Part shown: positions 15,380 through 46,000 of the stretch, piece after piece
How the letters are laid out: the number at the start of each line of letters is the position of its first letter
Position numbering within the stretch: position 1 is the stretch's first letter
DNA from: Blasia pusilla
Lineage: Eukaryota
Reading direction: 5' to 3'
NCBI GenBank assembly: GCA_050084515.1
Contig: CM114271.1
Location: forward strand, 27,838,001-27,902,000
DNA: 64,000 bases
Position numbers and translations under genes: made by a program
Notes under the pieces: generated by a model
What the model saw: only the letters and a program-made list of their open reading frames with translations
What the model was told of the DNA's origin: nothing
The model's database searches: none

Positions 15380-18232
15380 CTAGGGGAAATGGAGATTCTT
15401 GCATAATGCTTGGTGGAGTTGTAGCAGAAGTCCGCCATACTCAGCCAATTCTCCCAATCTCGCTGGTCCGTGCTCACATAATTCCTCAAGTACTGGTTCA
15501 CGAAGGAGTTTACCTTTTCCGTTTGACCATCCGTCTACGGATGGAAGGTTGTGCTGAAACTCAACTTGGTCTTGAACCTCATGAACAAGTGTTTCTAAAA
15601 GGCACAAGTAAGCTTTGGATCCCGATCTGAAACAATACTCCTTGGCAATCCATGCGCACGCCACCAACTATCCAGGAAGAGTCGAGAAGTCGAATATGCC
15701 ATCGCTGAATCCATCATCGGCACGAATCTCCCCAACTTATTGAACCAATCAACTATCACAAGTATAGCGTTGTATCCCTCAGACTCTAGAAGACTCGTTA
15801 TGAAGTCCATACTCACACTCTGCAAGGGTCTGCCGAAATCGACAAATGATACAATAAGCCTTGTTTCTTCGCATAAGAAACCATGTTCGCCTGACAGGTC
15901 ACATAGGTCTTCACATATTGAGCAACATCCTCTTTCATGTTGGGCCAGAACAACCTCTTAGCCAGAACAACCAGCTTGGATTTCTCCCCTTTATGTCCTG
16001 CCAAGGGTCCGTCATGACATTCCACTAACACCTTGGTTTGTAGTCTACCTTCGCCCACATAGATCCTGCTCTGCTTGAACCTTAGCAAACCATGCCTCAA
16101 ACTTATTTTGGCCACCTTCTCGCCCTGCTTCAACTTCCTTAGGTACTCGCTCGCATGGGTGTCTTTCATGTATCCCTCACGAATCCTTCTTTCCACATTT
16201 GTTTCCTTAGAGAACATTTCTCTCAAGACCTGTGTTGTCGATGGCATGTCTTCATCCCTACGGCTCAACGCATCTGGAATGACATTATCCTTGCATGGCT
16301 TGTGGACCAATTCCAAATTCATCAACGCCAAGGTATCATGCCATTGTAGTTGTTTTGGTGTCACTGGATCCTTGGTCTCAAAATACTTGAGTGATACGTT
16401 ATCGATGAACACTCGAGTCACGTGAAGTCCCAAACAGTGACGCCACTTTCTCAAGCAATGGACCACCGCGAACAACTCTATCTCACGAGTGGGCCACCTC
16501 CTCTCGGTGTCGCTGAGCTTCTTGCTTTTGTACACTACAAGTCTTCCTTCATGTAACAACATTCTTGCAATCGTGAAATCACTAGCATCTGTATGCACCA
16601 AGAATGGCTTTTCGAACTCTGGCAGCTTCAGCACTAGCTCCTACGATAGGATCTCCTAGACTCGGTTGAACCCGTCATTTACTCCTAGGATCCATGTTGT
16701 GTTAGAGTACTTTCGGTCCAATCTGTGAGAGGTCTCAAAATACCCAAAAACTTCCTCACATAGGTTCGATAGAAGTGCACTACATTGATAAACCTCCTCA
16801 TTCCCTTCACTATGGAAGGCGGTTTCCACTCGGCCATGGCTTTCACCTTGTCCATATCTGGACTAACTCCATCTTCGCTAACCACGTGAACCAAGAACTT
16901 GATCTTGCGCAACCCGAACTCACTCTTGTCCATATTTGCGTACAACTTGTTCGCCCTTAGTTTCGACAACACCGCCCTCAAGTGTCAAGCGTGCTCTTCT
17001 AGTGACTTCGAATAGATGAGTAGATCAATTAATGTAGATGATCACGTACTCATCCTTCTCCTCGTGAAAAATGGAGTTCATCCATGTGGTGAACGTTGAA
17101 GGCGCATTACTTAGACCGAAGGGCATCACCACAAACTCGAACGAGCCATATCTCGTTCTACACGCTGTCTTTTCCACATCCCCTCCGGAAGTCCGAATTT
17201 GGTAATATCCCGACTTCAAGTCAATCCTACTGAAGTACTTTGCCCCTGACAGTCTATCAAAGAGATCATCAATCCTTGGAAGAGGGTAATGGTTTCTCAT
17301 AGTCACCTTATTCAACACACGATAATCCACATAGAGTCTCATCTTTCCATCCTTCTTCTTCACAAAGAGAACATGCGCTCCATCCGGTGACTTGCTGGTT
17401 CTAATGTAGCCTTTCTCTAAGAGCTCACTGAACTGCTTAACCAACTCCTCATGATTCAATCTGTATGGTGCCTTGGAAGGTGGTTGAGATCGGGGGATGA
17501 CCTGTATCTTATGATTGACTGTCCTATCCGGTGGCAACTCCTTCAGAAGTTCATTCGTCAAGACATCACTAAACTCCTTGACTACTCTCTATAGCAGTGA
17601 TGGGATTCCCCTCGAAGTCGCGTCTTGATCTCTGCACTTTTTTCCTGTGATGTACTCCGCTTGTCTCATTAAGCAAAGGAAGCCATCTTCCAACTCGATC
17701 AGACTCCTCCTCGTAATGGCGTTCTCACGGGCATCTCGCGAACCAATCTCACATGCAACCATTTTCCTTTCACTAAGACGCTCAACCTCAATGGCCTTTG
17801 TCTTTGCTCCACCTCATACGCATCCAAGAATAAGTTCCCCAAGACTCCGTCAATGCCATCCATCTTGCACACTGTGAAATTCACCTTCAACTCGAATACT
17901 CCGCATCCGATCGTCAAACCCAACACAAACTCGGAAGTTCAATATCGATGAGACTTGCCTCCGGCAAAGCCTACTCAAAAGGGCTCGTCCACCTTAGAGG
18001 TTGACAAACCCAACTCCTTCACAATTCTTGGGCTTAGGAAGGAATGCGAAGCACCTGTATCTTCGATCAACATCCTATCGTGATCAAGAATCTTGGATCT
18101 TAGGTACACCAAGTTGGGCGTCCTCTTGGTGACTTGAAGGAAGGTCTCCACACCTCCCGCCGACAAGTGCTTAGCATCCAATGCAATCATACTCCCATTA
18201 CTATCCTTTGTTTTGGAGCATCCTTTTGCCAT
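15380..18232 (-). pseudogene. pol: Gypsy pol: protease, RT, RNase H, integrase (broken by stops and frameshifts)
   Basis: Protease [19 protein letters not shown]...YPLPRIDDL...[10 protein letters not shown]; RNase H VHTDASDF...EIELFAVV; integrase CHDGPLAGH and SMDFIT...SIVSDRD. Confidence 0.92.
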
Positions 18233-19050
18233 GTGCCTAGGTTTGCCACAATTTTAGCATACCACCTTTCCGTTTCTTGACTTCGGATGATGTGCTCCCT
18301 TCGCCTTAGCATGGTGTTCATGTCGCTTTTCCAATAGGTTGAGAGACTCTCCTTGGTCCCGCTCAACCCCACTCCAGACTTTCTTGGATGCCCCTTTTTT
18401 TTCATACTTTTGGAAAAAAAAATTGTCTCAAAGGGCTTCGATGTTTGGACCCCATCGTCCCCAATCCGCTCCGCCACCCTCAACAGCTCCACGCAGGTGT
18501 TTGGAAACTCCGGCATCCTGTAGAGGGGCTTCTCTGCACTCGGTTTGAGTCCAGCAATGAAGATCACTATATGCGATGCCTCATCCATCTTAGGAATGGA
18601 GTTCATTTTCACGCTGAACTCCCTCACATAATCGCTCAAGGGCCCAATCTGCCGCAGTCGCACGAGCTCTACCCTATTGTGAATCTCTTGGTACTCTGGG
18701 GTGAATCGGTCACCAATCAGCGTCTTGAACTCCTCCCAATTGAGAGGTGAACCACAAGCTTGATATTCTTCTCGTTGTGTTGTCCACCACTGTAGTGCAT
18801 GATCCTTTAGAAAGGTGACCGCCACTGCCACCTTATCTTGTTCCGCTGCCCTCTGTGCCTCGAAGTAATATTCCATCTCCATAAGGAAATCTTTCACCTT
18901 GCGAGTGTGCCCCACTCCAGTGAATGGCATGGTAAGTTTGTCTTGTAGAGCTTTTTTCCAAAACTTGAAACTCGGTCTGACTTGAGCTCTACAATCCGCT
19001 TGTTTTTGCATGAAGACTTGCTTGGTCATCATCTTCATATAGTCCATCAT
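18187..19050 (-). pseudogene. gag: Gypsy gag (retrotransposon gag/capsid)
   Basis: FLMEMEYYFEA...KVAVAVTFLKDHALQWW...WEEFKTLIGDRF...LRQIGPLSDYVREF. Frameshifted near the zinc knuckle. Confidence 0.88.
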
Positions 19051-19401
19051 TTGGGCGTAGAAGGCTGGTTCACTTGAGTTTGGAGCCGCTGGTTATGCAA
19101 GAGGGTGTGTGTTTGGGACACCCTCATGTCTGGTGTTCGGCATCTCGAGAGTCGGCGTCTCATCCACCGGTTCCCGATCCGACATCTGTTCGTCTCGTAG
19201 TTCGCGTCGCTTGACTTGGAGTTTCCATTGTTCATCTCCCTTGGTTTCCATCTTCAAGCTGCCACACTCAGATCTCCTCCTTGTTTCTTGTGTCCCTCCT
19301 TGAGCGTCTTGGCCTCGCCGCTACCTTGGTTTTTCCCCAAGCGTCCGGTTGCTCCCACAACCCCAATTTCTCGCTCACCAAGGATTAGCTCTCATACCAC
19401 A

Positions 19402-32076: not shown

Positions 32077-33280
32077 AGTTCATTACTAAATACCCATATC
32101 CATTCTATAATGACCCGCTTATGTGAAAATATTTTTTTCAATAAAAAGGTGGATGATCATAAAATACTCAATACATAATAATCGGATCCTACATCAGGTT
32201 ATCTATTTTATTAAAAGAGGACGGGGTTTGAGAACCCGTCCTCAGGTAATGACATATAGGCATTTTAAGGTCTTAGCCTTACGACACGTGGAGGGCCGAC
32301 ACAAAGGGGGGAGGGGTATTCAAGTAGTAAGGCTTTAGGGGTAGGGAGGGGGCATTCAAGTAATGAACATGTTTTAATTTTATTATTTAAACCACACTAG
32401 TTAGATGGGTAGAAATATTCCTAGTAGAAAAAATCATAAGGATTTGAATAAAGTAGAAAATTAACTTATTTAGTATTAATAATGTATTTAATATGATAAT
32501 GGGGGATTAAAAATATTAATAAAATGGAATAATTTGGATTAATTTTTTTAAGAATTTGAGTCTTACTTCACATGTGATGGAAAGGGAAAATTTTAATGGA
32601 TAAGGAGTAGATCAAATTTTATGGAAGGTTAAAATTATTTAGAGGATTGGGATATCATTTAAATTTGAATTGAGTATTGTAATTACTTAAAAGAGTGAAA
32701 TTTTCTTATTCTTCTAAGATTTTAGAAAATTATTATTATATTTTAAAATTTAAATTATTGATGTCATTATTTTTAATTTAATCGTATTAATTTGCATGTG
32801 ATATTTTGGGAAAGGAAAATAAATTTTAATGGAAAAGGAAAATCATGTAATTAAATAAAATTAATTAAGAATTTGTTTAGTGAATGCGATTTTGGTAGGA
32901 AGAGTGGAAGGGGAAGAATAAATTTTGTTGGAACTTTTAGGGAGGAATGTTATTATTTAGGAGAGATGGATATTATCTAAAGGTGATTTTCTTATTCTTT
33001 TAAGATTTATACGAGTGGAAATTACACATAAAATTTGAAATTAAATATATTTTGAAAATTTAAATATAACTTTTAAAAAAATATCATCGACACCTACTTA
33101 GAAGCCATTCTATTGAGGAAATTGTGCTAGGTGTGCATGACACGGGCAACATCTACATTATTATGGGAGAGTGTCTTCTTGATTTGCAAACACCTCACCT
33201 ATATCTTTGATACGTGACAACTAGGCAACAATGAAATATATCTTCTTATGCAAGTCCCGATGAAAAAAATTTGAATTTGT

Positions 33281-33862
33281 TGTCGTACGAATCCACATCG
33301 TCATACAACATACATCGCTGACATACCATACTCACATACATACATAACATAGACGAGAGCATCCACAAACACCAGTGTACCACAACTGAAATCCGTGAAA
33401 GACCTACTGTCATAAAACACGTATAGAATCACATACAATCGAGCCAAACCCACTCCACGATGGGAGAATCTAGATCGAAGCTTGCGGGAAACACCATAGC
33501 CAAGAGCTCTACTCACTACCAAGGCTAACTCCCAACGCAACAGGCTCAACTCAAAGAACTGACTGTTCTTTGAGTGCACTCCACCTTATATCCTCCAACC
33601 TAAGAGCGGACCCTACTAGAGAAGTCACCATCAACTGAGTAACCCCCAACCCTATGTATGAAATTGCATCTCTACTTAGACACTGCGGCCCTATATAAGG
33701 TATGGCCTCTAGTAGCACACTATACTCTACGATATAATCCGTATGGTCATGACAGTTGTCGTGCAAATCCACATCGTCATACAACATACATCGTTGACAT
33801 ACCATACTCACATACATACATAACATAGACGAGAGCATCCACAAACACAAGTGTACCACAAC
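33281..33862 (-). repeat. 3' terminal block B1-A2-B2
   Basis: B1 (33757-33862) and B2 (33281-33386) are 106-bp direct repeats with 4 mismatches, flanking A2. A PPT-like AGGGGGGCGA (33872-33863) lies immediately before B1. Confidence 0.95.
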
Positions 33863-34035
33863 TCGCCCCCCTAATTGGCGGTTAGGTACCTCTAACTCCC
33901 TGGTAGCCCTATACATCTACTACATACTATACACCTTCTTGGATGCACGAATCAAAAGGCCGGGTGCTAGGTTGCCCCATCGTTAGTCGCACATCTGTAA
34001 TCCATATCATGCAAAGATCAAGTCATCTACCCCTC

Positions 34036-34554
34036 CTAAGTACATCGAGGACAAACCCACCATCCAGTAGGAACAAAATCCATACGTGGAGTCAAACACA
34101 TCATGTGCCAACCCCTAGAACACCGATCACACACCAACATACGGGCTGCGTTACCAGCAGACCCACACAACATGCACCTCAAGCTAGCACGTATCATGGC
34201 TAAGCTTGGGTCAACAGTACCATCTACATTTGGAAGATGACATGGCGCACAATTACGCACATGGTCCTTCCAAAAAACTCCATCACGACCCTCCAACATG
34301 AGAACTCCAGAAGCTAACACCTCGCGCACTCGTAAAATAGTGCGGCCTGCCGTCACATCCAAGGTTTTCGGTGTAATCTGCTGCAAATAGACATAGTCCC
34401 CCACATGGAACCTACGAATCGATGGTCGATAACCTCCACCATGAATGGTTGCATACCGCAACGTATCCCTGTGTTGAGCAATGGCAAGATTCTCAAAGGC
34501 TGTTGGTATAACTCTCCGAAAAGAGCTCGCCTCACGAGAAACACTCTCATCCAC
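34036..34554 (-). CDS. Integrase C-terminal region ending in a PHD finger
   Basis: RFHVGDYVYL (integrase C-terminal), then CMLC...LVCDRCSRGWHMMCL..VPTGWWVCPRC, a C4HC3 PHD finger. Confidence 0.88.
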   Translation of the reverse strand: MDESVSREASSFRRVIPTAFENLAIAQHRDTLRYATIHGGGYRPSIRRFHVGDYVYLQQITPKTLDVTAGRTILRVREVLASGVLMLEGRDGVFWKDHVRNCAPCHLPNVDGTVDPSLAMIRASLRCMLCGSAGNAARMLVCDRCSRGWHMMCLTPRMDFVPTGWWVCPRCT

Positions 34555-34559
34555 ATCTC

Positions 34560-36212
34560 TGGGTCATCAAGGTTCACCACCTCACTAGACTCCCGACAAA
34601 TTGCTGCTGGCAAGTCTGGATCTCGGCCGTATAACAGAAATTAAGGTGAGAAGGAAGCCAAGGATGCTTGGCGACTGAACCTATACCCCATGGCTAACCA
34701 TGGCAAGTGAATATCCGGTCTCAAGATGCCCTTCAGAGGCCATACTTGCGCAATGCCCTCTTCACCGTCTGAACCACACGCTCAGCCAAACCATCCGCCC
34801 TGGATGATCTCGAGTCGTGGTCCGATGATCAATCAACGCCTTGTCACACAAGACCGAAACTCACCCAAACTCAGACCTGGTCGGTCAAGACTTCACCTGG
34901 TGCACCAAAATGACTAAGCATTCTATCAAGAAATGCATACGCCGTTCCTCACTTGCCTTGTCGTAATGCCACCAACTCAATCCACTTGGAGAAGTGCTCC
35001 ACCATCACCAACACATATCGATGATGTCGCATACCAACGGTAAGGGTCCCCAAAGTCCAAATCCAACAAGAACTCCAACCCCATAATAGGCAAGGGATGT
35101 AACGTGGTGTAGGGGCATTGAATGATGCCTCACCCGGTCACAAACCATACAACATGACACCAACTGCTGCACCTGAGTATGCATGCCACGCCACCAATAC
35201 TGACCAAGGAGTAAGCTATACGTACGCTTTACCCCAAAATGTCCCAACTCCTCATGGGCCTGTCGCACAATGCGCTCTCTCTGAGCCAAAGGCGGCACTA
35301 CTCGTACTCTACCATCCTCCCACACACGGAGAATATGTGTTCCCTCCAATCGATACCTCTTAGCATGTTGAAGAACACGGTCTCGCTCCTTGGCACTCAC
35401 TATGCTTGGCACCCTACTGGTCCGTAGGAACTCCAATGCCAACGCATCATCATGAATATCACGCTGATCCATACCACCATCTCCAACCTTAGGATCTGAA
35501 GGCTGGCCATCTACCCTCTGACTAGAGTAAGATATCATGTGGTCCTCCATACTAGAGTCCACCCCTAACCAACATAAAAAGGCGGACGCATGCCAACTTT
35601 GCACCATCTCCTCATCAACCTCGTCATGCCATCTAGCCCAAGTTGTATCCTCTTGGCTAGTACATGGGTTCCTACTCAACCCATCAGCATCAAGGTTGGC
35701 AACTCCAGGTCTATGTACCACCTGGAAGTCATACTCCTGTAAGATAAGAGCCCACCGTGCAAGCTTCCCTATAAGCTTGTCAGACTCCATCAACTACTTG
35801 AGCGGCTGGTGATCAGTAACAAGGGTAAACTGTGTGCCAAACAAGTAACATCTAAAGTGTGCCACAGCCCACAAAACTGCCAAGTACTCTCCCTCATATG
35901 AACTATAGCGCGACTCCGCTGCATTATTCGAACGACTTGCATAGGCACAAACTCCATGTGCTCATCATCATGTTGTGTTAACACCGCTCCAAGTCCCAAC
36001 CTAATCCAATCAGTGTGTAATTGAAATGGGCGCCCTCTGATAGGTCTCCTCAAGATAGGCGCCGCCACCAACTGGGCCTTAAGCTCCACAAAAGCTCTCT
36101 CGTGATCATCTCCCCAGTGCCACTCTTGATATGATTTCAGCAATTGGTTCAAAGGCTTTGCCATAGCACTAAATCCCTTCTCATACCTCCGATAGTAGTT
36201 CGCCAATCCCAT
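34560..36212 (-). pseudogene. RNase H and DDE integrase
   Basis: RNase H: FQLHTDW..GLGAVL and KLARWALILQEYDF...ADGLSR. Integrase HHCC: HEELGHFG...CMVC. Frameshifted core: GPLP, LTDQ, IDHRTT..DHP.ADGLAERVVQTVKRAL. Confidence 0.9.
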
Positions 36213-36218
36213 GAATGC

Positions 36219-37124
36219 TCAAACTCTACTCACATCTACCAGAGGCGGAAAAAGTGCAATAGCCTCCACCTTTGCTTGCTGAACTCCCAAACCACCTGGA
36301 TAGATCACATGACCCAAGTACTCAATATCCTCATGGAAGAACTTACACTTTCCTTGATGCAAACTTAGACCATGAGCTTTCAACCGCTCAAACACCATCT
36401 GCAAATGTATCTGATGCTCCTCCACCGTGTTACTGAACACCAAGATATCATCAATGTAACACCGAACAAAATCCAACCCTGCTAGGATCCTAACCATCAC
36501 TCTCTGAAACTCGGCAGGTGCATTCTTCAACCCAAAGGGTAAGAATTTCCACTGGTACAAACAATCCTTGCCATGAGAGTTGACACCCCAAAATGTTGTC
36601 TTGGCCTTGTCACTCTCTCGAATCGGCAATTGATGGTATCCTGCCCGAAGATCCAAAGTACTGAAAATCTTTGCTTGTCCCACCACATCAAAGATCTCCT
36701 CAAGTGTAGGCATGGCATACCTATCGGCCTTGGTTTGCCGATTGATAGGACGATAATATCCGCTATCCGTGTAGTTGCCATGCATATCCTTTTTAGCAGA
36801 CATGATAGTGGCTGATGCATACTCTCTATGCGAAAACTCCACTAATCCAACCTCCAAAAGGTCCAACATCCTACTCTGAATCAGGTCCCTCTCCATATCA
36901 CTATATCGGTAGGGATGACGGAAGATTGGCGTATCACTAGCCAAATCAATCCGTATATCGGGTCCAACCAGAGAACCCAACTCCCTCATGCTAAAGGCAA
37001 AACAACTCCTATAAGCACGTAGGAACTGTGTCAAGCGTCGTTTCTCACCTCCCGTAAGCTTGGGCCCAAGTAATGGCTCCCAAGTCTCCTCCACTGGCAC
37101 ACTAGAGGGAGGGGACGATGCCAT
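36219..37124 (-). pseudogene. Reverse transcriptase
   Basis: YRPINRQT..DRYAMP, FSTLDLRAGYHQ, LPFGLKNAP, CYIDDILVFS, YLGH. Confidence 0.95.
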
Positions 37125-37394
37125 TGGCTGCTACGCAACCCCCTCACAAGATAGTACACCCTTAGCTACACCATCAACTGAGCAAATAACTCCTCCACCA
37201 GCATGAGCAACCAACTCCACATGCCCAACCATTACATAACATTTACTCCAAGGATGCAAAATACTACTCTCCCCGCCCCCAGCCGATGCCTCTATCGTCC
37301 CGGTAGCCATCGAGCTCATTACAAGGGATGGAAGACCCACAAACATAGTCTGAAGTCGACGCTGCTCGGCCATACCAAGACTCAAAATCCAAGT

Positions 37395-38459
37395 CTAACA
37401 ATTCAGGTCCATGGCTTGACCCAACACATGACGTCGTGAAGCCTCAGAAATGGAAGCAACCGCTGTCACACCAGTAGCAAATCCCATCGCACGCTCTCTC
37501 TCATCAGCGTTAGGCTCCACCAACTGTCGCACATGAGAATCCCATACAAGCCCGGAACCACCTTCCCTGTATGCATGTGACGAGGGAAAATTGAGAAATG
37601 TGGGTAGTGCCATCCTAGGCTGGCCCACACGGTTCACCACTGCCATGGGTGACCGATCAAAAACCCTCCCCACCTGAGAAAGTCGCCCAGTATCTAAGAT
37701 ACTATCCACTGTAAGGCAAGGATCCCGCTGCACTGCATCATATGCTTGACGTAGAACCTCCCTAGGCAACAAGTTTGTCCACCACAAGCGTGGACGATGT
37801 GCACGCGAGCCAACTCTCGCTGCATCCAACAACACCGCTGGTCCAATCCAAGACCGCACCTCATGAACACTCGCCATCATCCGGGTCCGAGTGTCACTCA
37901 ACAATGGAACATTTTCCAGAATGTAAGCAAGAGCACGTGCCTGATGAACCTGAAGATGTCGTAACACCCGTAACATCTCCCAAAACAATCGAGATCTAGG
38001 GTCGTGTAATCCCTCACCACGACCAGCACGTGTATGACCCTGACATGGCCATCCAACAATCACCGAATCCACACGACCAACCCTCTCAAGGTCCTGCGCC
38101 CCCAACAATGCAATGTATGACGGTAAAGCACGCTGGTACCCACGAATAGCTGATGGCGGCAACAACTCAGGATATCTCCGCATCAACTGACCAATATGTC
38201 GGGATGAGACTCTCTGGGCCGTCTCATCTCGCTCCACATACACGTATCTCCGCATAGGAATACCGGCCTGCAACAGTGCAGCCAAACCACTGCTAATCCC
38301 ACCAAAGAGATCTAACACAAAAATGCCCTCCGGCGGATACTGCCATACAATGGGTGTAGTATCCAAAGGGGATAACCCAACTGGACGAGAAGTAGGATTC
38401 CGCCGTGGGGCCTCCTCTTCCTCGTGAGGTATAACAGCCTCACACCAAGCCTCCTGCAC
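37395..38459 (-). CDS. C5 DNA cytosine methyltransferase domain within retroelement Pol
   Basis: Motif I VLDLFGGI, II YVERD, IV GWPCQG (catalytic Cys), VI YILENV, VIII AHRPRLWWTN, IX ERERAMGF and X RRHVLGQA, in canonical order in an uninterrupted 354-codon stretch. Confidence 0.92.
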   Translation of the reverse strand: MQEAWCEAVIPHEEEEAPRRNPTSRPVGLSPLDTTPIVWQYPPEGIFVLDLFGGISSGLAALLQAGIPMRRYVYVERDETAQRVSSRHIGQLMRRYPELLPPSAIRGYQRALPSYIALLGAQDLERVGRVDSVIVGWPCQGHTRAGRGEGLHDPRSRLFWEMLRVLRHLQVHQARALAYILENVPLLSDTRTRMMASVHEVRSWIGPAVLLDAARVGSRAHRPRLWWTNLLPREVLRQAYDAVQRDPCLTVDSILDTGRLSQVGRVFDRSPMAVVNRVGQPRMALPTFLNFPSSHAYREGGSGLVWDSHVRQLVEPNADERERAMGFATGVTAVASISEASRRHVLGQAMDLNC

Positions 38460-38498
38460 TAGGCGATCAGCCTCATGCCGTTGTGCACCGCCTGAACT

Positions 38499-39100
38499 CT
38501 AAAGTGGCACATCCAACGATGAGGATGCCACTGCTGCAAAAATAGGGACCTCCTCTACCTCCTCATGCACAGGAGAATCCATAGCATAAACATTACGCTC
38601 CAAAAAGTCTCCTGGCCAAGTGACTACTCCACTAAAACCAGCCACATATGCTAACATTGTTGGGGAAGACCCTCCTGGTCGAGCCCCATAAATAAATCTC
38701 ACAGGAACTTGGCTCATACGTCCATCCCCGGACTGCCAACCAGGTCTATAAGACGCTGTCTCAGTCCAGTAATCCATCTGAAAACCCATCGGGTGCACAT
38801 CGCTCCTCCAACTAGTACATCATACGACTCGGTGATGTGACTACCGTGAGATACTCCCAACCATGAGCTATCGATCGCATGATCTCAGTCTCAACTGCAT
38901 TAAAACTTCTCCCATTGTCATGAATTGAGACCTATCATTGGCTCCTCCAAGTGATGTTTGAATCTGGAATGGGCAAGGCTCAAGCTCTGACCTCCGAATA
39001 CCCAAACCAATACATGCCGCCTTTCCCAACATCAAAGGTTGGGCACCAGAGTCTAACAAACTCTATCTGGTCTATATACCTGTCCTGTAGGACTCACCAA
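38499..39100 (-). pseudogene. Aspartic protease domain
   Basis: LDSGAQPLMLG (D-S-G active site) followed by PCPFQIQTSLGG. Frameshifted. Confidence 0.75.
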
Positions 39101-39849
39101 TCGGAATATCCCACTCCGGTTGTCCAACATACATACACCAGGTGTAAGCCTCTCACGATCAATGGCTGGCCGGGCTGGTAATGCATCCATCTTCGCCGCT
39201 GCTGTCTGCCAAGTAGCACTGGTACTCAATGCTACACCTGACATAGAGGGTCGCTCCACCGCAACACCCTCATCCACCTTAGCACGTGTAGTAGTAACAC
39301 CCCCACGTTCACATAATGTGGCTGCTAGCTGAAATACAGGAGCTAAGTAAACTCCTAAAGCCATCAACTCCGTGGCCAAAAACAATGGGGATCCCAACAC
39401 TGAAGTTGCCATCCGCAATACTGCACTAGATGCTGCATCCGTGTCTACTACACGCGATGTAGATGCCTAAGTCCCCACTGTCGGCTCAATAGGCTGCGTA
39501 GGAACCATGGATGGAGTCCTAAGCACCTTAGACAACAAGAATGACTGGGGAAGCCTAGCCTGCCTCCCAGCCTCATCCCTCTATGGGTCCAACTCCACAG
39601 AAGCACCACGTGGCTCTGACGCTCGAGTGGCTCCTCTCGTAACTACAGCCGATGCCTCAACTTGTGCTGCACTCGCCATATGAGAGAGATCATCCCCTCC
39701 ATAAGAGGTGGAGGCCCCTGCTCCCGAACCTGATCTATGCTGGATACCAGCCATAGTAGCCAACTCTCGCTCCAATCGCCGATCCTGGCACCATAGTCGA
39801 CTCTGTGTCGAGTGGTACGGGTAGCCACCGTAGGCTCTCCAACCACTAG

Positions 39850-41219
39850 TCCACCTCTACCACCCCTACCACCTCTACCACCTCGGCCTCTCGGAGCTAC
39901 TCCACCACGGCCGCGGCCTGATCTCAACTCTGGATGAAGATCAAAGCAACGCTCTCGAGGATGACCCGGTCTCCCGCAATGATCACACTAAGTTGGGGCC
40001 GACTGAGGCCCATCCTCCAAAGTCCGTCTCCCATCCTCTTGGGGAAAAAACTTCCTAACATGATCACCTCCACATGTCCAACATGACTGTCCTTGTTGCG
40101 GGGCAGCAAATGAAGGCAATGGTCTCTGCGCAAGTGTCCCTCTAGGACGTGACTGAGGTCGTGTGTACCCTCCACGACTCCCACTACTACTATCACTACC
40201 ACCACTACTACGAGACTGTGAGGTGGGCTGCTGAACACGAGAAGTAGTAGTTGTATCCCTACTGAATGCGGATGTCACCACTCTCTCCGGATCCTTCACC
40301 ATGTTAAGCTCAATCTTCTCAGATAGAGCAAACACATGGGTCAATGTGGGTGAATCATCACTCATAAGAGTAGCATCACGTACCCTATGGCGCAACTCTC
40401 TGTCCAAGATCCCATACCAAAATTGGATCGTTTCTGAGCCTCATCACACCGGGTAATCGAAATCAAGCGTTGCATACGAGTGTATGCCTCACGAAGACTC
40501 TCACCAATCTTTCGCTCAAATTCTTGAAGACTCCTCAACTTCTCTGTCTTCACTCCCTTATAGTTCTTCTTCAACCTCTTGAAGAACTCTGCAACTGGGC
40601 TAAACGATGGTGGGGTTCTAGTACCTCCACTAGTACCCCCATTGGTACCTCCACTGGTACCCCCACTCTGGCTCGTACTCGTACCACTCAACGTCGGGTT
40701 GGCTGACATAGTAGGAGCACTACTACCAATACCACCATGGGTGATAGACACATAGCCTAGAGACCAATATTGTCTTGATGCCTCAATCTCAGCAACACGG
40801 TCCTTCCTAAACTCATGGTAATCATCCATGGGTGGTCCCTCCAAGTGCTGAAACAACCCCTTCCAAGCCGAGAAGGGTGTAAACAACGTGGCGTTCCGCA
40901 ACATATGCATATCACACCACGTATCAAACTCCTACATGAAGTCCTCCAACTCAATGGTGCCCACTGCACCCGAGTATCGTCGTGGGCCCTTCATGGCCCC
41001 ATATATCCCGTCCATGTCCCAAATCAATGGAGCTGCAACACTCGATAACAACGTAGAAGACTCGGTGTTTGGAACACCCTCGTCCTCCTCTTCATCAACT
41101 ATCAGAAGTGGAAAAGGTAGCCGATACCTAAATCCACTCCGTGTGAAACCACCACTGTCCGCACCACGGTCCCCAACCAGACCACCAGACAACTCCGTGA
41201 TGACCAACGCGGATGCCAT
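39850..41219 (-). pseudogene. gag: Gag of the split-repeat element, with two zinc knuckles and RGG repeats
   Basis: LQEFERKIGESLREAYTRMQRL; a degenerate knuckle CWTCGGDH; CDHCGRPGHPRERC (CX2CX4HX4C, read through the TAG at 39988); then RGRGG...RGGRGGRGGRGG. Confidence 0.8.
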
Positions 41220-42710
41220 CCCACCACCAAATTACCACCACTAAGTAACTAAGTGACGTCGATGTCGCTGTACTATTCTAGCTCTACTAGCTATGGGTGT
41301 AGGAAACCTAACCTGTCATCACCACAAGAAGCCTCCCACGGTCTACTGGTCATCACTCCAGCCTCACTATCGGTAGCACACAGGAATAACACTACTCTGG
41401 AAATCAACGTCAACCCTAACAATGGGCGCGCAAGCAAGAAGCAACGATGGAGGGGATCCAAACACAGGAAGTCCAACGACAACCCTCCAATCGCAAATGG
41501 AAATCAAGGTAACACAATCCACCAAACATGGCGCCCCCTGAATCCACAGAACCCACCACACAATTCTAACGCAATAGCTACTCCGCTGCGGGTCGATAAC
41601 GAGCTAGTCGAACTCGTAGCATCTGAAAATATCACCTGCATGGAGAGGCTACACCGTACTATGCGCTAGAGGTCCATCAACCAGAAACCTGAGATGCATA
41701 AAGCGCCTAACACCTCTCCAAACAACACCAAATGAGCTACAACAGTGTGTACACTGGCATAGTTAAGAACTCAGCAGTTGAGCGTCTTCCAGGCAGAATA
41801 GCCCAAAGATGGATGACTAGTTATGCAACACTCAAATCACAAATCTTGCAAAAACTACCTCACGCCCAAGCAAGCCAGCTTGCTTGCTTGCTTGCTCCTT
41901 GCTCCTTACTCCGCCTCTCACGACCACTCGCCCCGAGCTACGACGAGTTGCCTCGAAGCCTCAAAACGCCGAGAAATGCTCGAGACATGCCCCTATCGCC
42001 AGGCTTCGCTATGGAGAGAGGCCCAACCAGGGCGCCCCCAACGGGATAGGCGTCTCCAACAATGAACGAGTCACCAACCAGCCAGCCCTCCGATCCGCTG
42101 TCCACCATAGCCAGACCTTGAGCTAGTCCGCGAAATTTCGATCAGCAATTACTTCACAAATCCGTTACCAAAATCAAATCTGTTTTGACCAGAATTCAAT
42201 TGACCACCATAGCTATCTCTCCACAAAAAATCAGCTACAACCAAGTTCTGTACTCCGAGCTAAAAATCAGACAAACTTGCTATCCATACACCTCCAGAAT
42301 CGCAAATCGGACAACGCTTCCGCCCAGTTTCATGCACGCAGAAATCCGCAACGCTCCACACACTCGAGAAAATAGCTTCACATGAGATCAAAATACAAGT
42401 AGCAACAGGAACCTCTCACCCGATCTGGATGAACTTCAACAGAGCTTCCGCACTCCAAGCTCTCCACATCAGAAAACCGTCAAACACGAACCAGAATCTT
42501 CAATCCTTGATAACTTCCAACTCCCTTGACGAAATCTGGCAATCTAAAGCGCGTTGGAAAGCTCTCAGCAAGGCCCTTCTTTCCCAACTAACCACGCACT
42601 AGATTCATACCTCTAACATAGGCCACAAGCCACGAACATCCACGTTTGAGTACACAATCAGCCCTAACCAGACCCTACTGATCCACAATCGAAGCTACCA
42701 TCGATCTACG

Positions 42711-42723
42711 TCAGTTCTTTGAG
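42711..42723 (-). promoter_or_regulatory. Self-priming type primer-binding site
   Basis: CTCAAAGAACTGA directly follows the ...ATTTCA end of A1 and is the exact complement of TCAGTTCTTTGAG at 42899-42887. It does not have the TGG start of a tRNA PBS. Confidence 0.75.
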
Positions 42724-43091
42724 TGAAATCCGTGAAAGACCTATTGTCATAAAACACGTATAGAATCACATACAATCGAGCCAAACCCACTCCACGATGG
42801 GAGAATCGAGGTCGAAACTTGCGGGAAACACCATAGCCAAGAGCTCTACTCACTACCAAGGCTAACTCCCAACGCAACAGGCTCAACTCAAAGAACTGAT
42901 TGTTCTTTGAGTGCACTCCACCTTATATCCTCCAACCTAAGAGCGGGCCCTATTGGAGAAGTCACCATCAATTGAGTAACCCCCAACCCTATGTATGAAA
43001 TCGCATCTCTACTTAAACATTGCGGCCCTACATAAGATATGGCCTCTAGTAGCACATTATACTCTACGACATAATCCGTATGGTCATGGCA
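42724..43091 (-). repeat. Repeat A1 (368 bp, 5' terminal)
   Basis: Co-linear with A2 (33387-33754), about 17 substitutions by manual count and no indels. Confidence 0.95.
42887..42927 (-). promoter_or_regulatory. Putative element promoter: TATA box and initiator
   Basis: TATAA at 42927-42923 and an Inr-like TCAGTT whose A (42897) is 30 nt downstream. Confidence 0.6.
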
Positions 43092-46000
43092 TTGTATGTT
43101 GCATAATTAAACTCTTCCTTTCACAAATTATACATTAAGAACAAATTCAAACACTTTTTATTCATGTGTACACGGAACCTTGCTAGTAATATGTACTAAG
43201 AAGATCATAATATATACTAGGATCCTTATTTAATATTCCTTACCAATCTCTATATATGATAAAAAAAAACCTTGAGCAAAAGTATTTTCGAGAGAAATTC
43301 AATATCGAGTTAAAAAACTGCAGTTTGACTTCCAACTTTGATAATCATAAATCTTAGAAAATAATCGTGATTAAGTTACACTTTTTTTTAAAGAAAGAAA
43401 GCAGTTATTCTAATCGCATATGCGGAAAAGCATACACCAAGGTCTTTTCATGGAAACCTTTCTTTCCAAACCATTAAGGAACTAGAGGTGGGTGGCCGTG
43501 GTCAATCGACAGAGGCCGCCGTCTGAGTGAAAAGCGTCATATTGGATTATTCCAGTTCGGGATCCAATTAGGCCGAGATCCATTATCACGGACGACGGAT
43601 TTTTTTAGTCCGGAGCGAATGAGAATTGGCAACTTGAGACACTTTCGATTGCGTCTCAGGGAATGTCTGATATGATGCAGTATCTCTCTCTGCTTCGGGG
43701 GCCTACTGATGGTATGATTTTTCAAAGTTATCATTATGCTTATTTGAAGTATGCGCCAATGGAAGCAATGCGGTGATGTAAAGTTACCCACCGTACAACT
43801 TAACGACCGAGGAAATGAGTGGGTACATGGACGCCAAAAGGATTCATGGATGACCGGAGGTAAGGCATGCGCACCACTAGTGACGAATAGTTCCTTGGTC
43901 GATGGAGCTCTGGATGTCGAATCAAGCTGACAAGAGAGATCACATAAAATCTTACTTTGAAGTGTCGCAGATCCTGGATTGAAAGTCAAACATACGTCCG
44001 TGGGTTTGGTTTCTTTCCTGAGGAATTTCCCGTGATGAAATCAAACGCCGTTTTCTGTCGTCGCTCGATCGAGGTCCACTTATCTGAGTTCCACTAGGGT
44101 CAAGAAGTTTCTTCCAAGCTATCGAATCTTACTGCAATCTAAAAATCCTCTGCCGTAAGCATGACGAGTGGAGTGTTTTTTTTTTCTGACTATGGAGAGG
44201 ATGGATACGGGGCAAACCAGCCACCTAACAATCTCGGTCATCGTTCTTGTCTCGAGAATCTACAGATGTCGCCAAGGAGAGCAAGCCCCAAGGAGAAAAC
44301 AGAACAATGGAAGCTTTCATCACCTTAATCTACAGTCATGTGTGTTGGAAGATCTGATTCAACAACTTCAATCAGTTCTTCAGAAATAAATCGGTTCCGT
44401 GAATTGAGGACAAAGTAACACAACACATTTGCTTCGCCTACGACCCGGCGAATGACGATGCTCGGCTCCCGGAAGCCAATGGAACCGCAACATGGGGTAT
44501 TAATGACATGAGCGGGCAAGAATGTGCGACAGTTCTCGGCGGAGAGCTCCATGATGTCTCTTCAGTCTCCAGTGCTCTCCACTCCGTGATCAACAAGTTT
44601 GGTCTGTCGGTAGTTATTGTATTGATGGAGGTCGGACCAGGTCCGAATCTGATAGCAATCTTTGAAACGTTTCAAAACAGCTGGCAGCTGGCGTTGTTCC
44701 ATGTTCCATCTCCTTCCTCAACGGCGAGCAAGATCGCCGTCAACTCCCACACGTCAACAAACCCACTGGAAGCGACGCAAGTTGCCTCGGATCAGACACT
44801 AGTAGATGCGATGAAAGTGTCACTCGACAATCAGCTTCTTCCCATATGCAGCATGACTAAGCAAGAAGGGGTTCCAAGTAGGGGAGGCTGTTGGTATTAC
44901 GCACCAACGGCGGTGTCGCTGTTGTGGTGGTGTATAGTCGTATCAATGGTTCCTTCGGATAGGCTATTGTCCTGTGTCGGGGGGTTCAAGGCAGTATCCC
45001 TTATCGAGTGGCTGGGCTATTTCCAAAGAAGACAGATCCTCTACTCAAAAGGAATGAAAAATCCATATGAGAAGAAATGGTCGTCGAAATCGTCGAGCAG
45101 AGAAACGGCCACATTGCACCTGGACGCCTCGATCTTCCAAACGCAAGAAGAGAGAAACGGTCAAAAACGTGAAGGAGCGCCCCACTGCCACGATTCTTGA
45201 TTGCAAGGTCTAGGGCTGGGAGGTCCCACTAGGTATGTCAGGTAGTTTGGTTCTTCTACTGGAAGTCTTTGAAAGGGCCAAGATCCCGAAGGCATGATTC
45301 GTCCTGATGCGTGTACCTCTCACGGGAAGGACTGAGCAAACGAGCCGACTCCATGTTTTTTCACCGGGGAACGCCTGTTCAGAAGATATACGATAGCATC
45401 GGAGAGGAGTAGTGATTAGGATCAGCGGCAATTACAGCCCCGAGAAGTGAATTGGGATCATGCTCCTCATCGACTGGCAAAGAGTCACAGACAAACTGAC
45501 CTAATGGAATCGCAGATTCGCAATAGCACATTGGGAAGTCTTGTCTACTGGCCATTCAATGCTACAACGTGAGGTCCAAGAGACGGACGAACACGAAAGA
45601 GACTTCGTCACCACGGTAGTAGAAGCAAGTCTTCAATAAGACAAGCATTAGAGATAATTTCGGTTTTCGGACTAGGGGGCCTAGCGCGGCAGTACAATGA
45701 ATGCATCGGATGTGCACTGACAAAAGGCAGAGAAAGCTTTCAAGTCTTCCAGCCTCCCAGGGCTTCCTAGCACAAACAATGATAGACCAAACAAACGACA
45801 CCTTGCAAAACTTCCAGATCACGATATCTAATCTGACTACTGAGTCACTCACTCCTGACGCTCGCTCCTCCTGCCGTGTAGCTACCAAATTGGCAGGGGG
45901 AAGCTTTCAAAGTGCATCAATCTCTTGTTGATTCCTTCTCGATTAAGAAGATGTACAGACAACTTCATTGTCCTCACCAACTAATTGAATCTTCACTTTT

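What the first reader, a model, noticed from the sequence alone, without database searches (positions are those of the whole stretch)
37131..38501. A DNA cytosine methyltransferase built into the Pol polyprotein of a plant retroelement
Seen: C5-MTase motifs I, II, IV, VI, VIII, IX and X (DLFGGI, GWPCQ, ENV, AHRPRLWWTN, ERERAMGF, RRHVLGQA) are intact. The domain is in the same frame as the post-protease linker upstream and the RT downstream. Only single TAG codons at 38499, 37395 and 37131 interrupt that frame, so the ancestral Pol was PR-DNMT-RT-RH-INT-PHD rather than a separate captured gene. Established: DNMT-carrying retrotransposons have been reported in dinoflagellates and in the charophyte Klebsormidium. 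Motif VIII resembles DNMT3-type AHRARYFWGN, and the motif order is not permuted as in plant DRM. Inference: the enzyme may be packaged and methylate the new cDNA (self-marking or evasion), or alter chromatin at insertion sites. Its presence in what looks like a land-plant genome would extend the known range.
Basis: partly seen in the sequence, partly recalled or inferred. Interest (0 to 1): 0.92.

Follow-up and report, generated by a model that had tools for sequence, protein, structure and literature searches.

The report
Retrotransposon carrying its own DNA methyltransferase
This is a dead copy of a plant jumping gene whose family has long carried a DNMT3-like DNA methyltransferase as one of its own proteins, a known kind of element that turns out to be common and still transcribed in mosses and liverworts.

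Summary
On the minus strand, 37410-38324 encodes a C5 cytosine methyltransferase domain with unpermuted motifs I, IV, VI, VIII, IX and X. Its nearest solved relatives by sequence and by fold are DNMT3A/B/C. It lies between protease and RT of a 9.8-kb Ty3/gypsy-like element (33281-43091).

It is a family trait, not a one-off capture. Relatives occur in Marchantia, Calypogeia, Riccia and Sphagnum. Of 50 related metagenome loci with enough sequence downstream of the DNMT, 46 have RT-RH next to it. Its dN/dS (about 0.2) equals that of RT. DNMT and RT trees share their main groupings.

Three corrections:
- The TAG at 37131 is not decay. It is a conserved ORF1 stop in a UAG-CAR-YYA read-through context, so the DNMT ends a Gag-PR-DNMT protein.
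- This copy is dead: two other TAGs, a TGA and several frameshifts.
- The range extension is modest. A Gypsy-DNMT3 element is published for Klebsormidium, and bryophyte copies already sit unremarked in public annotations.

Also seen: split repeats (A...B-A-B) with 4-bp target duplications, a likely self-priming site, and strand-biased RNA reads from sister copies. What the enzyme methylates is untested. I file it as a new member of a known kind.

The parts
43092..43095 (-). Target-site duplication, 5' side (ACAA).
   Evidence: Read directly. The same 4 nt follow the 3' end. Four of the five other full elements also have a 4-bp duplication.
42724..43091 (-). Repeat A1, 368 nt, starting with TG. 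It is the left terminal repeat.
   Evidence: 95% identical to A2. The differences are 16 transitions and 1 transversion, K2P 0.048.
42711..42723 (-). Primer-site position directly after A1. It is complementary to 13 nt inside A (A positions 193-205).
   Evidence: 0 of 200 shuffles match as well. The pairing is kept in other copies with different sequences in clades A and C.
39925..41015 (-). Gag with CCHC zinc knuckles, broken by one frameshift (near 40435) and in-frame stops.
   Evidence: tblastn with P0001 and P0037; a weak Retrotrans_gag hit; read-through translation.
38730..39059 (-). Aspartic protease (DSG at 39045-39053). Its C-terminal part is disrupted by stops.
   Evidence: Relatives hit Asp_protease_2 / gag-asp_proteas.
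38499..38501 (-). In-frame TAG in the linker before the DNMT (decay).
   Evidence: Relatives read through at this place.
37410..38324 (-). DNMT3-like C5 cytosine methyltransferase domain, motifs I-X in unpermuted order.
37395..37397 (-). In-frame TAG just after motif X (decay).
   Evidence: Relatives read through at this place.
37125..37133 (-). Conserved ORF1 stop with its context, TAG CAG CCA. It matches the UAG-CAR-YYA leaky-stop motif.
   Evidence: The motif is taken from a passage of PMC3542737.
36303..36755 (-). Reverse transcriptase (RVT_1) within ORF 36222-37130.
36219..36221 (-). In-frame TGA between RT and RNase H (decay).
35731..36116 (-). RNase H (RT_RNaseH_2 / RT_RNaseH), with a frameshift near 35900.
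35125..35292 (-). Integrase H2C2 zinc-binding domain. The catalytic core downstream (about 34560-35124) is shattered by frameshifts and stops.
   Evidence: rve is not detected here but is detected in L041.
34042..34176 (-). C-terminal PHD finger.
33866..33872 (-). Polypurine-like tract AGGGGGG, two bases upstream of B1.
   Evidence: A G-run sits at the same place in five other elements.
33757..33862 (-). Repeat B1, ending in CA. Two bases (AC, 33755-33756) separate it from A2.
33387..33754 (-). Repeat A2.
33281..33386 (-). Repeat B2, the right end of the element, ending in CA.
33277..33280 (-). Target-site duplication, 3' side (ACAA).

Best explanation
Window 33281-43091 (minus strand) is a decayed copy of a Ty3/gypsy-like retrotransposon lineage of the green plant line. 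This lineage has carried a DNMT3-type C5 DNA methyltransferase as one of its own protein domains for a long time.

Shown:
- The domain has every catalytic motif, folds like the DNMT3A/B catalytic domain, and has been kept under purifying selection as strong as that on the RT.
- In this lineage the DNMT is the last domain of ORF1 (Gag-PR-DNMT). ORF1 ends at a conserved UAG in a UAG-CAR-YYA context. RT-RH-INT-PHD follows in the same frame.
- This copy cannot work: two extra TAGs, a TGA, several frameshifts and a broken integrase.
- Sister copies about 95-99% alike are transcribed, with a strong bias to one strand.

Inferred:
- ORF2 is made by stop-codon read-through. The methyltransferase would then be produced in Gag-like amounts and packaged in the particle (about 0.7).
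- After release by the protease, it methylates cytosines of the element's own new cDNA or fresh insertion. That would give the copy a host-like or self-limiting methylation state from the start (about 0.4).
- The C-terminal PHD finger on the integrase reads histone tails to choose insertion sites (about 0.5).
For: - Identity of the domain: Pfam PF00145 above its cut-off. DNMT3A/B are the best solved relatives by sequence, E 1e-10, and the alignment is collinear.
- Fold: AlphaFold model with pLDDT 86.8 and pTM 0.87. The top Foldseek hits are all DNMT3B/3A/3C catalytic domains, E about 1e-16, TM 0.75-0.80 by target length for the catalytic-domain entries.
- Conserved chemistry: LFGG, GWPCQG, ENV and AH.R..WTN are invariant or nearly so, and ERERAMGF nearly so, in 21 sequences that are 41-72% identical.
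- Family trait: 43 long and 180 near-length homologues, including Marchantia, Calypogeia, Riccia and Sphagnum proteins. 316 metagenome stretches encode a relative. RT-RH lies downstream in 46 of 50 loci and gag-PR upstream in 47 of 48 loci that have enough flank.
- Selection: window against related loci gives DNMT dN/dS a median of 0.205 (11 loci) and RT 0.18 (19 loci), at dS about 0.7.
- Co-evolution: the DNMT tree and the RT-RH tree give the same major groupings.
- ORF1 stop: present at the same aligned place in 29 of 29 same-frame clade A and B loci, and found by motif in 35 of 80 loci, 26 TAG and 9 TAA. P0001 and P0002 of Marchantia end there. L041 and L047 have two long ORFs in one frame, split only by this stop. 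The window reads TAG CAG CCA, which fits UAG_CAR_YYA.
- Transcription: RNA raw reads of two runs from one study cover the element. About 95% of pairs have the first mate on the + strand, and depth is 18-37 over the DNMT.
Against: - No activity data exist for this family. In the one published test, the Klebsormidium Gypsy DNMT3 domain gave no methylation in yeast. The authors called that result inconclusive.
- All related loci were found with the DNMT itself as bait.
- Only 5 of 57 single-frame DNMT copies in the metagenome loci are free of stops. Within the closest clade dN/dS is 0.55. Most copies are therefore dead.
- Read-through is inferred from conservation and context only. Clade A loci read CAA CCC, which misses the last base of the motif. 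No downstream RNA structure is supported (z -0.78; consensus energy -0.72).
- 2204 of 2237 RNA reads in X22 are only 95-99% alike, so they come from sister copies and not from this one.
- Summed DNA contig depth is 2-3 times lower over the DNMT than over the RT. The tool warns that this is not a copy number.
- Self-methylation would be expected to silence the element, so its benefit is unclear.
Confidence: 0.8

Rival explanations
1. One-off capture: this single copy picked up a host DNMT gene or was hit by a nested insertion, and the family normally has no methyltransferase.
For: Only one DNMT lies in the window. Every related locus was found using the DNMT as bait, so the sample is biased.
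Against: The same gag-PR-DNMT-RT order recurs in 46 of 50 and 47 of 48 testable loci. It also occurs in annotated proteins of four bryophyte genera. The DNMT and RT trees agree. DNMT dN/dS equals RT dN/dS. No repeats or duplications bound the domain.
Confidence: 0.01
2. The domain is kept as a non-catalytic part. It could act as a decoy that binds and poisons the host's de novo methylation machinery, as DNMT3L-like partners modulate DNMT3A. It could also be a structural piece of the Gag-PR protein.
For: It sits in ORF1 with Gag, so it would be made in structural amounts. The Klebsormidium domain was inactive in yeast.
Against: The catalytic Cys in PCQ, the ENV Glu, the SAM-binding FxGxG and the RxR of motif VIII are invariant across 21 sequences at 41-72% identity. 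A decoy would be free to lose them. The yeast result was called inconclusive because human DNMT3B also failed.
Confidence: 0.1
3. It methylates RNA, not DNA. The target would be m5C on the element's genomic RNA or on its own priming region, as DNMT2 acts on tRNA. The effect would be to stabilise the RNA or help packaging and priming.
For: The authors of the 2018 paper raised this for the LINE-borne DNMT. The element seems to prime itself from its own RNA, so an RNA substrate is at hand in the particle.
Against: The best relatives by sequence and fold are DNA-acting DNMT3 enzymes. DNMT2 scores only E 0.04-0.5. DNMT domains of DIRS elements also classed as Dnmt3 methylated DNA at CG in yeast.
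Confidence: 0.12
4. It acts in trans on host chromatin at or near the insertion site or genome-wide. This would shape local heterochromatin to make insertions tolerable to the host, rather than marking the cDNA.
For: The polyprotein carries a PHD finger. In most algal relatives the DNMT lies directly before INT-PHD: 32 of 150 representatives have the complete RT-RH-DNMT-INT-PHD order. That hints at coupling to integration. The idea is discussed.
Against: In this lineage the DNMT is in ORF1, separated from INT-PHD by a stop and by RT-RH. A physical link to integration is therefore not kept. There are no data on targets.
Confidence: 0.2
5. The stop at 37131 is not read through. ORF2 would instead be expressed by splicing, reinitiation or a separate transcript, or the stop was inherited from a dead master copy amplified by helpers.
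For: No downstream RNA structure is supported. Clade A loci have CAA CCC rather than the full CAR YYA. Marchantia gene models bridge the stop with predicted introns (P0006 and P0007).
Against: The stop is shared by clades whose DNMTs are only about 50% identical and by at least two plant genera, so it went through many rounds of transposition. ORF2 has no start context of its own and stays in frame. No RNA joint spans the site among the 15 joints listed (20 more not shown).
Confidence: 0.2

Closest known systems
KnitGypsy-Dnmt3 of Klebsormidium nitens (de Mendoza et al. 2018, PMC5890265; sections 9-11 read)
   Same: A Gypsy-type element with an unpermuted Dnmt3-like domain inside its polyprotein. 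There is purifying selection on the DNMT (their Ka/Ks is below 0.2; here about 0.2). The repeat structure is described as 'the same as that of a DIRS retrotransposon' although the domains are Gypsy; here the repeats are A...B-A-B.
   Different: The host is a bryophyte-like land plant, not a charophyte alga. I could not compare sequences or domain order, because the figure and supplements were not visible and no K. nitens protein surfaced in my searches. The ORF1 stop, the target-site duplications and the self-priming site are not mentioned in the sections I read.
SymbioDIRS-Dnmt3 of Symbiodinium (same paper)
   Same: A Dnmt3-type domain in a retrotransposon polyprotein. It is the only such domain shown to methylate CG de novo, in yeast.
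   Different: It is a DIRS element of dinoflagellates, which the paper calls distantly related to LTR Gypsy elements, and an independent acquisition according to the paper. The element here has an integrase zinc domain, an rve core in relatives, and 4-bp target duplications.
Cellular DNMT3A/B/C (animals) and plant DNMT3 / DRM
   Same: The catalytic fold and motifs. DNMT3A/B are the best solved relatives by sequence and structure. The motif order is as in DNMT3, not as in DRM.
   Different: There is no PWWP or ADD domain. The domain is embedded in Gag-PR. It has PCQ instead of the PCN of DNMT3A. The stretch between motifs VIII and IX is longer than in DNMT3A. Identity to the solved structures is only about 20-23%.
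Algal PHD-bearing Gypsy elements with DNMT (proteins of Scenedesmus, Monoraphidium and Cymbomonas; Closterium)
   Same: The same DNMT clade (35-48% identity), the same RT-RH and INT-PHD modules, and congruent trees.
   Different: There the DNMT sits between RNase H and integrase, or ahead of RT without a detected protease in Closterium. Here it sits between protease and RT and upstream of a stop.
Read-through gag-pol expression (gammaretrovirus type) and the tobamovirus UAG-CAR-YYA signal (PMC3542737, passage read)
   Same: A single in-frame UAG between the upstream and downstream polyprotein parts. The six bases after it in the window fit CAR-YYA.
   Different: The stop lies after PR and DNMT, not after Gag. 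No downstream pseudoknot or hairpin is supported. Read-through has not been measured.
Ngaro / PAT-like DIRS elements with split direct repeats
   Same: The repeat topology A1 - internal - B1-A2-B2.
   Different: Those elements use a tyrosine recombinase and make no target duplication (recalled). Here there is a DDE-type integrase, TG...CA ends and 4-bp duplications.

Membership tests
C5 cytosine DNA methyltransferase, DNMT3 type | Match to PF00145 above the curated cut-off. | tested here: met
   37.1 bits against 22. In the intact relative L041 the score is 51.1 bits, covering profile positions 2-120. The coverage of the profile is partial.
C5 cytosine DNA methyltransferase, DNMT3 type | Catalytic and cofactor motifs present (FxGxG, PC, ENV, RxR, motifs IX and X) in the order I-IV-VI-VIII-IX-X. 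| tested here: met
   Residues 64-67, 149-154, 195-197, 233-242, 333-340 and 359-362 of the ORF. They are invariant or nearly so in 21 sequences.
C5 cytosine DNA methyltransferase, DNMT3 type | Fold of the DNMT3 catalytic domain. | tested here: met
   Model pLDDT 86.8. All the top listed Foldseek hits are DNMT3A/B/C, E about 1e-16, TM 0.75-0.80 by target length for the catalytic-domain entries.
C5 cytosine DNA methyltransferase, DNMT3 type | Groups with DNMT3 rather than DNMT1, CMT, DRM, DNMT2 or bacterial enzymes in a phylogeny. | not tested
   No cellular DNMT sequences were at hand. The only support is the ranking of E-values: DNMT3A 1e-10, DRM 3e-6, HaeIII 9e-5, DNMT2 0.04.
C5 cytosine DNA methyltransferase, DNMT3 type | Transfers methyl groups to cytosine C5 in DNA. 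| not testable with these tools
   This needs an enzyme assay. The published test of the Klebsormidium homologue was inconclusive.
Ty3/gypsy LTR retrotransposon | Pol order PR-RT-RH-INT with gypsy-type RT, RNase H and integrase. | tested here: met
   RVT_1, RT_RNaseH(_2) and Integrase_H2C2 in the window. The rve core is seen only in the intact relative L041.
Ty3/gypsy LTR retrotransposon | Two equal long terminal repeats at the very ends. | tested here: not met
   The left end is A only and the right end is B-A-B. The same holds in L043, L056, L062, L065 and L066.
Ty3/gypsy LTR retrotransposon | TG...CA termini and a short target-site duplication made by integrase. | tested here: met
   A 4-bp duplication in 5 of 6 full elements, with TG at the start of A and CA at the end of B.
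Ty3/gypsy LTR retrotransposon | A polypurine tract before the 3' repeat and a primer-binding site after the 5' repeat. | tested here: inconclusive
   A G-run lies at or within a few bases upstream of B1 in all six elements. No tRNA-type TGG site is present. Instead there is a site complementary to 9-16 nt inside A, which would fit self-priming.
Gypsy-DNMT3 elements (KnitGypsy-Dnmt3) | A Dnmt3-like domain inside the polyprotein of a Gypsy element, under purifying selection. | tested here: met
Gypsy-DNMT3 elements (KnitGypsy-Dnmt3) | DIRS-like repeat structure. | tested here: met
   Split direct repeats, set against the figure legend.
Gypsy-DNMT3 elements (KnitGypsy-Dnmt3) | Common descent with the K. 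nitens elements (one clade in RT and DNMT trees). | not tested
   No K. nitens sequence was returned. Supplements were closed.
DIRS order (Ngaro / PAT-like) | A tyrosine recombinase instead of an integrase, and no target duplication. | tested here: not met
   The integrase zinc domain and rve core are present and 4-bp duplications are seen. No recombinase hit appeared in the Pfam scans of the element's frames.

The most novel reading that the evidence does not exclude
This bryophyte lineage makes its DNMT3-like enzyme as the tail of Gag-PR, upstream of a programmed leaky UAG. The methyltransferase would then be a bulk particle component rather than a trace Pol enzyme. The lineage also replicates by an undescribed route for an integrase-bearing element. 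It primes itself from its own RNA, builds B+A repeats, and integrates through an internal B|A site. This leaves the permuted A...B-A-B form with 4-bp duplications. Together these would define a distinct, ancient group of green-lineage retroelements that write DNA methylation on themselves and are still expressed in land plants.
Probability: 0.3. Interest if true: 0.7.

Novelty: new member of a known kind. Interest (0 to 1): 0.5.

Why it matters
DNA methylation is the main way plants silence transposons, so a transposon that carries its own de novo methyltransferase turns the usual picture round. The only published streptophyte case I found is in an alga, and one opinion paper states that such elements are missing from land plants 'such as tracheophytes' (PMC6338049, passage read).

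The family here is abundant in liverworts and mosses. It is under selection and is transcribed with a strong bias to one strand. This puts the question of what the enzyme does within reach of tractable models such as Marchantia, where methylomes, mutants and transformation exist.

The ORF1 position of the enzyme bears on how much of it is made and where it acts. The read-through signal and the odd repeat topology are testable leads on how these elements express and copy themselves.

For genome annotation, these copies are easily mistaken for host DNA methyltransferase genes. Several are labelled as such in public records.

Tried and rejected
- Whole genome: none is held for the window. An unbiased RT- or gag-based count of relatives without a DNMT was therefore not possible.
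- The search for related loci was unreachable twice and answered on the third try.
- Homodimer prediction for the DNMT domain returned no verdict. It is not used as evidence either way.
- RNA structure after the ORF1 stop: the single-sequence fold gave z -0.78. The 10-sequence consensus gave -0.72 kcal/mol with 2 compensated pairs of 13. There is no support for a read-through stimulator.
- ESM Atlas only repeated 'C5 methylase, Streptophyta' and added nothing.
- The look-up of sequencing runs listed no holder on record as RNA. The RNA evidence comes from laying raw reads of runs with the same species label.
- Host genes to place the organism: Pfam on 10 further long ORFs of the window found only a second gypsy element.
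- Literature: searches found no paper that describes DNMT-bearing Gypsy elements in bryophytes, or integrase elements with split direct repeats. Supplementary trees of PMC12344493 and PMC5890265, which may include them, could not be seen.
- Two hits carry bacterial MAG labels (P0085, P0381). I take these as mis-binned eukaryotic contigs, not as evidence of bacterial origin.
- A one-off capture and a non-catalytic relic were both considered and rejected (see the rival explanations).
Full report
**The observation**

The finding lies on the minus strand. ORF 37395-38498 translates to a 367-residue protein that carries DLFGGI, GWPCQG, ENV, AHRPRLWWTN, ERERAMGF and RRHVLGQA.
- It matches Pfam PF00145 above the curated cut-off (37.1 bits against 22), though only over profile positions 61-120.
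- Against all PDB sequences the best matches are the catalytic domains of DNMT3A (E 1.2e-10) and DNMT3B. The alignment is collinear from motif I to VIII and again over IX-X. DRM (3e-6), M.HaeIII (9e-5) and DNMT2 (0.04) follow.
- An AlphaFold model built on 21 sequences is confident (pLDDT 86.8, pTM 0.87).
- The top Foldseek matches in the PDB are all DNMT3B/3A/3C catalytic domains (E about 1e-16, TM 0.75-0.80 by target length for the catalytic-domain entries, 20-23% identity).

The motif order is I-IV-VI-VIII-IX-X, so it is not the DRM permutation.

**The element around it**

Pfam and tblastn with relatives give the order gag (CCHC), protease (DSG), DNMT, RT, RNase H, integrase zinc domain, PHD finger, from 41015 down to 34042.

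This copy is dead.
- It has the TAGs at 38499 and 37395 and a TGA at 36219.
- The protease holds further stops.
- There are frame changes near 40435, 39900, 39059-38777 and 35900.
- The integrase core no longer gives an rve hit.
- Its two A repeats differ at 17 of 368 positions, 16 of them transitions (K2P 0.048).

It is the only DNMT in the window. A second, ordinary gypsy element without one lies at about 15.8-19.1 kb.

**A family trait, not a capture**

A search of long proteins with the DNMT returned 43 hits. They include many Marchantia polymorpha models (up to 72% identity; gag-PR-DNMT or PR-DNMT-RT-RH), Calypogeia fissa and Sphagnum fallax. The near-length search returned 180 hits, adding Sphagnum troendelagicum, S. 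tenellum and Riccia sorocarpa. The best hits are 79-82% identical metagenome proteins.

A scan of JGI metagenome contigs found 316 stretches that encode a relative, and 80 loci were kept.
- Where at least 1.5 kb of flank exists, RT-RH lies within 3 kb downstream in 46 of 50 loci.
- Of the four exceptions, two (L034, L035) have another retroelement nested in the DNMT and two (L050, L051) show no RT-RH downstream.
- Gag-PR lies upstream in 47 of 48.

All these loci were found with the DNMT as bait, so close relatives without it could not show up. I could not run the unbiased RT-based search (and caps).

Three further results argue for long residence.
- The catalytic motifs are invariant or nearly so in 21 sequences that are 41-72% identical.
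- Nei-Gojobori dN/dS between the window and related loci has a median of 0.205 for the DNMT (11 loci) and 0.18 for the RT (19 loci), at dS about 0.7.
- Quick maximum-likelihood trees of the DNMT and of RT-RH give the same main groups. They used 49 rows, including 35 of the 110 available proteins that have the DNMT after the RT.

Against a rosy view, only 5 of 57 single-frame DNMT copies in the loci lack stops. Within the nearest clade dN/dS rises to 0.55, as expected for mostly dead copies.

**The wider group**

An exhaustive HMMER search of 1.84 billion representatives gave 3149 hits at E up to 1e-3 and 226 at E up to 1e-30.

Among the best 150, domain mapping with the family's own domains showed 32 complete RT-RH-DNMT-INT-PHD proteins plus many partial ones. 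Only a few have PR-DNMT-RT.

Named members with the DNMT after RNase H come from Scenedesmus, Monoraphidium and Cymbomonas. A Closterium protein has DNMT-RT-RH-INT.

In both trees the proteins with the DNMT after RNase H form one side of a single branch (SH-aLRT 95 and 99). This fits one acquisition followed by a change of position. The trees are unrooted and quick, so direction is not shown.

**The TAG at 37131 is native**

Translating the linker between DNMT and RT in every locus shows a stop at the same aligned place, followed by Gln. This holds in 29 of 29 same-frame loci of the window's clade (about 70% identity) and of a second clade (about 50% identity). Other stops are scattered.

A motif search finds the stop in 35 of 80 loci, 26 as TAG and 9 as TAA.
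- The Marchantia models P0001 and P0002 end exactly there.
- In L041 an ORF of 1359 aa (gag-PR-DNMT) and one of 1043 aa (RT-RH-INT-PHD) share a frame and are split only by this stop. In L047 the DNMT-bearing ORF (692 aa) and the RT-RH-INT-PHD ORF (1043 aa) are split the same way.
- A third clade (about 40% identity) has no stop there.

The window reads TAG CAG CCA, L041 and L044 read TAG CAG TTA, and L047 reads TAG CAA TCA. All fit the UAG_CAR_YYA read-through signal of plant viruses (passage of PMC3542737). The close clade reads CAA CCC, which misses the last base. No downstream RNA structure is supported.

I therefore read the layout as ORF1 Gag-PR-DNMT and ORF2 by read-through. The conservation is shown; the read-through is inferred.

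**Ends of the element**

The repeats are not plain LTRs. On the coding strand the order is A1 (43091-42724), the internal part, a G-run, B1 (33862-33757), two bases, A2 (33754-33387) and B2 (33386-33281).
- The same A...B-A-B topology is present in L043, L056, L062, L065 and L066. B1/B2 pairs are also seen in L011, L031, L071 and L072. These span two clades.
- A starts with TG and B ends with CA, and these ends form a 7-nt imperfect inverted repeat.
- A 4-bp target duplication flanks the start of A1 and the end of B2 in 5 of 6 full elements. In the window it is ACAA.
- The bases directly after A1 are complementary to 9-16 nt inside A in 6 of 8 elements. The score is 0 of 200 shuffles in five of them. 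The paired sequences differ between clades, which looks like self-priming of the Tf1 kind (recalled, not checked in a paper).

The topology equals a two-LTR circle (LTR = B+A) opened at the internal B|A site. Only one of the two possible permutations is seen, and I have no worked-out mechanism.

The figure legend of the Klebsormidium paper notes a DIRS-like repeat structure with Gypsy domains. This matches.

**Expression**

The best DNA holder and three 2026 RNA-seq runs share a coded species label. I laid two of the RNA runs at 95% likeness.
- 2237 reads (X22) and 2097 reads (X23) fall on the element.
- About 95% of pairs have the first mate on the + strand. This bias argues that the reads come from RNA rather than from contaminating DNA. 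In the usual stranded libraries (the library type of these runs is not on record) it would mean RNA of the element's coding strand.
- Depth is 18-37 over the DNMT, up to about 120 over INT-PHD, and low over gag.
- 2204 of the 2237 reads in X22 are only 95-99% alike and carry fixed differences, so sister copies are the source and not this copy.
- The two runs belong to one study.

**How it probably works**

Shown: a DNMT3-type domain with intact chemistry, under selection, encoded in ORF1 of a transcribed family.

Inferred: Gag-PR-DNMT is the main product and is packaged. The protease frees the enzyme, which methylates the element's new DNA. The PHD finger on the integrase reads chromatin.

The 2018 paper showed CG methylation in yeast by the DNMT domains of the dinoflagellate DIRS elements. 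It got no signal from the Klebsormidium Gypsy domain and called that inconclusive. It discusses self-methylation of cDNA, protection from editing, and self-limitation. I put self-methylation of cDNA or fresh insertions at about 0.4. The rivals are a trans action on host chromatin, RNA methylation, and a non-catalytic role.

**Novelty**

The kind is known: Gypsy-DNMT3 (PMC5890265, sections 9-11 read). It is cited as 'streptophytes (Gypsy-DNMT3)' in a 2026 preprint and as retrotransposon-embedded DNMT3 in PMC12344493 (passages read).

One 2019 opinion piece says that methylase-bearing transposons are not present in land plants 'such as tracheophytes'. My searches found no description of the bryophyte elements, of their ORF1 stop or of their ends. 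Supplements that may list them were closed.

I file the window's copy as a new member of a known kind. The read-through layout and the permuted ends are leads that could raise it.

Noticed in passing
window 33281-33862 and 42724-43091; L043, L056, L062, L065, L066: The family's terminal repeats are split (A1 ... B1-A2-B2), not plain LTRs. Even so, the ends are TG...CA with a 4-bp target duplication in 5 of 6 full elements. The form equals a two-LTR circle opened at an internal B|A site, and only one of the two possible permutations is seen.
   Followed up: partly
window 42711-42723 paired with 42887-42899 (and 33550-33562 in A2): The bases right after A1 are complementary to a stretch inside A (13 nt here, 9-16 nt in 6 of 8 elements). 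The paired sequences differ between clades. This suggests that reverse transcription is self-primed rather than tRNA-primed.
   Followed up: partly
P0040, P0229, P0359, P0387, P0290 and the best 150 representatives: In green algae the same DNMT clade sits between RNase H and integrase (RT-RH-DNMT-INT-PHD), or ahead of RT in Closterium. The domain has therefore changed place within the polyprotein while staying with the same RT lineage.
   Followed up: partly
window 15813-19092 (minus strand): A second, conventional Ty3/gypsy element (gag, RT, RNase H, integrase zinc domain) without any DNMT. Its RT is only 25-35% identical to the family studied.
   Followed up: no
window 34506-35499 and 38832-38916: RNA reads of both runs join 34506 to 35499 (992 nt skipped, 11 other letters between) and 38832 to 38916 (83 nt skipped). 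The ends are not intron-like, so these are probably deletion variants among the transcribed sister copies.
   Followed up: no
window 37208-38543 against neighbouring bins: Summed DNA contig depth in run X1 is 2-3 times lower over the DNMT than over RT or gag. The tool warns that this is not a copy number. It could mean more divergence there, or some copies without the domain.
   Followed up: no
window 41016-42723: The stretch between A1 and the gag start is 1.7 kb here, but about 1.1 kb in L043, L056 and L008. This copy may hold an extra insertion in its leader.
   Followed up: no
P0085, P0381: Two relatives are labelled as bacterial MAG proteins (Obscuribacterales, Minisyncoccia). They are most likely eukaryotic contigs binned by mistake.
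   Followed up: no
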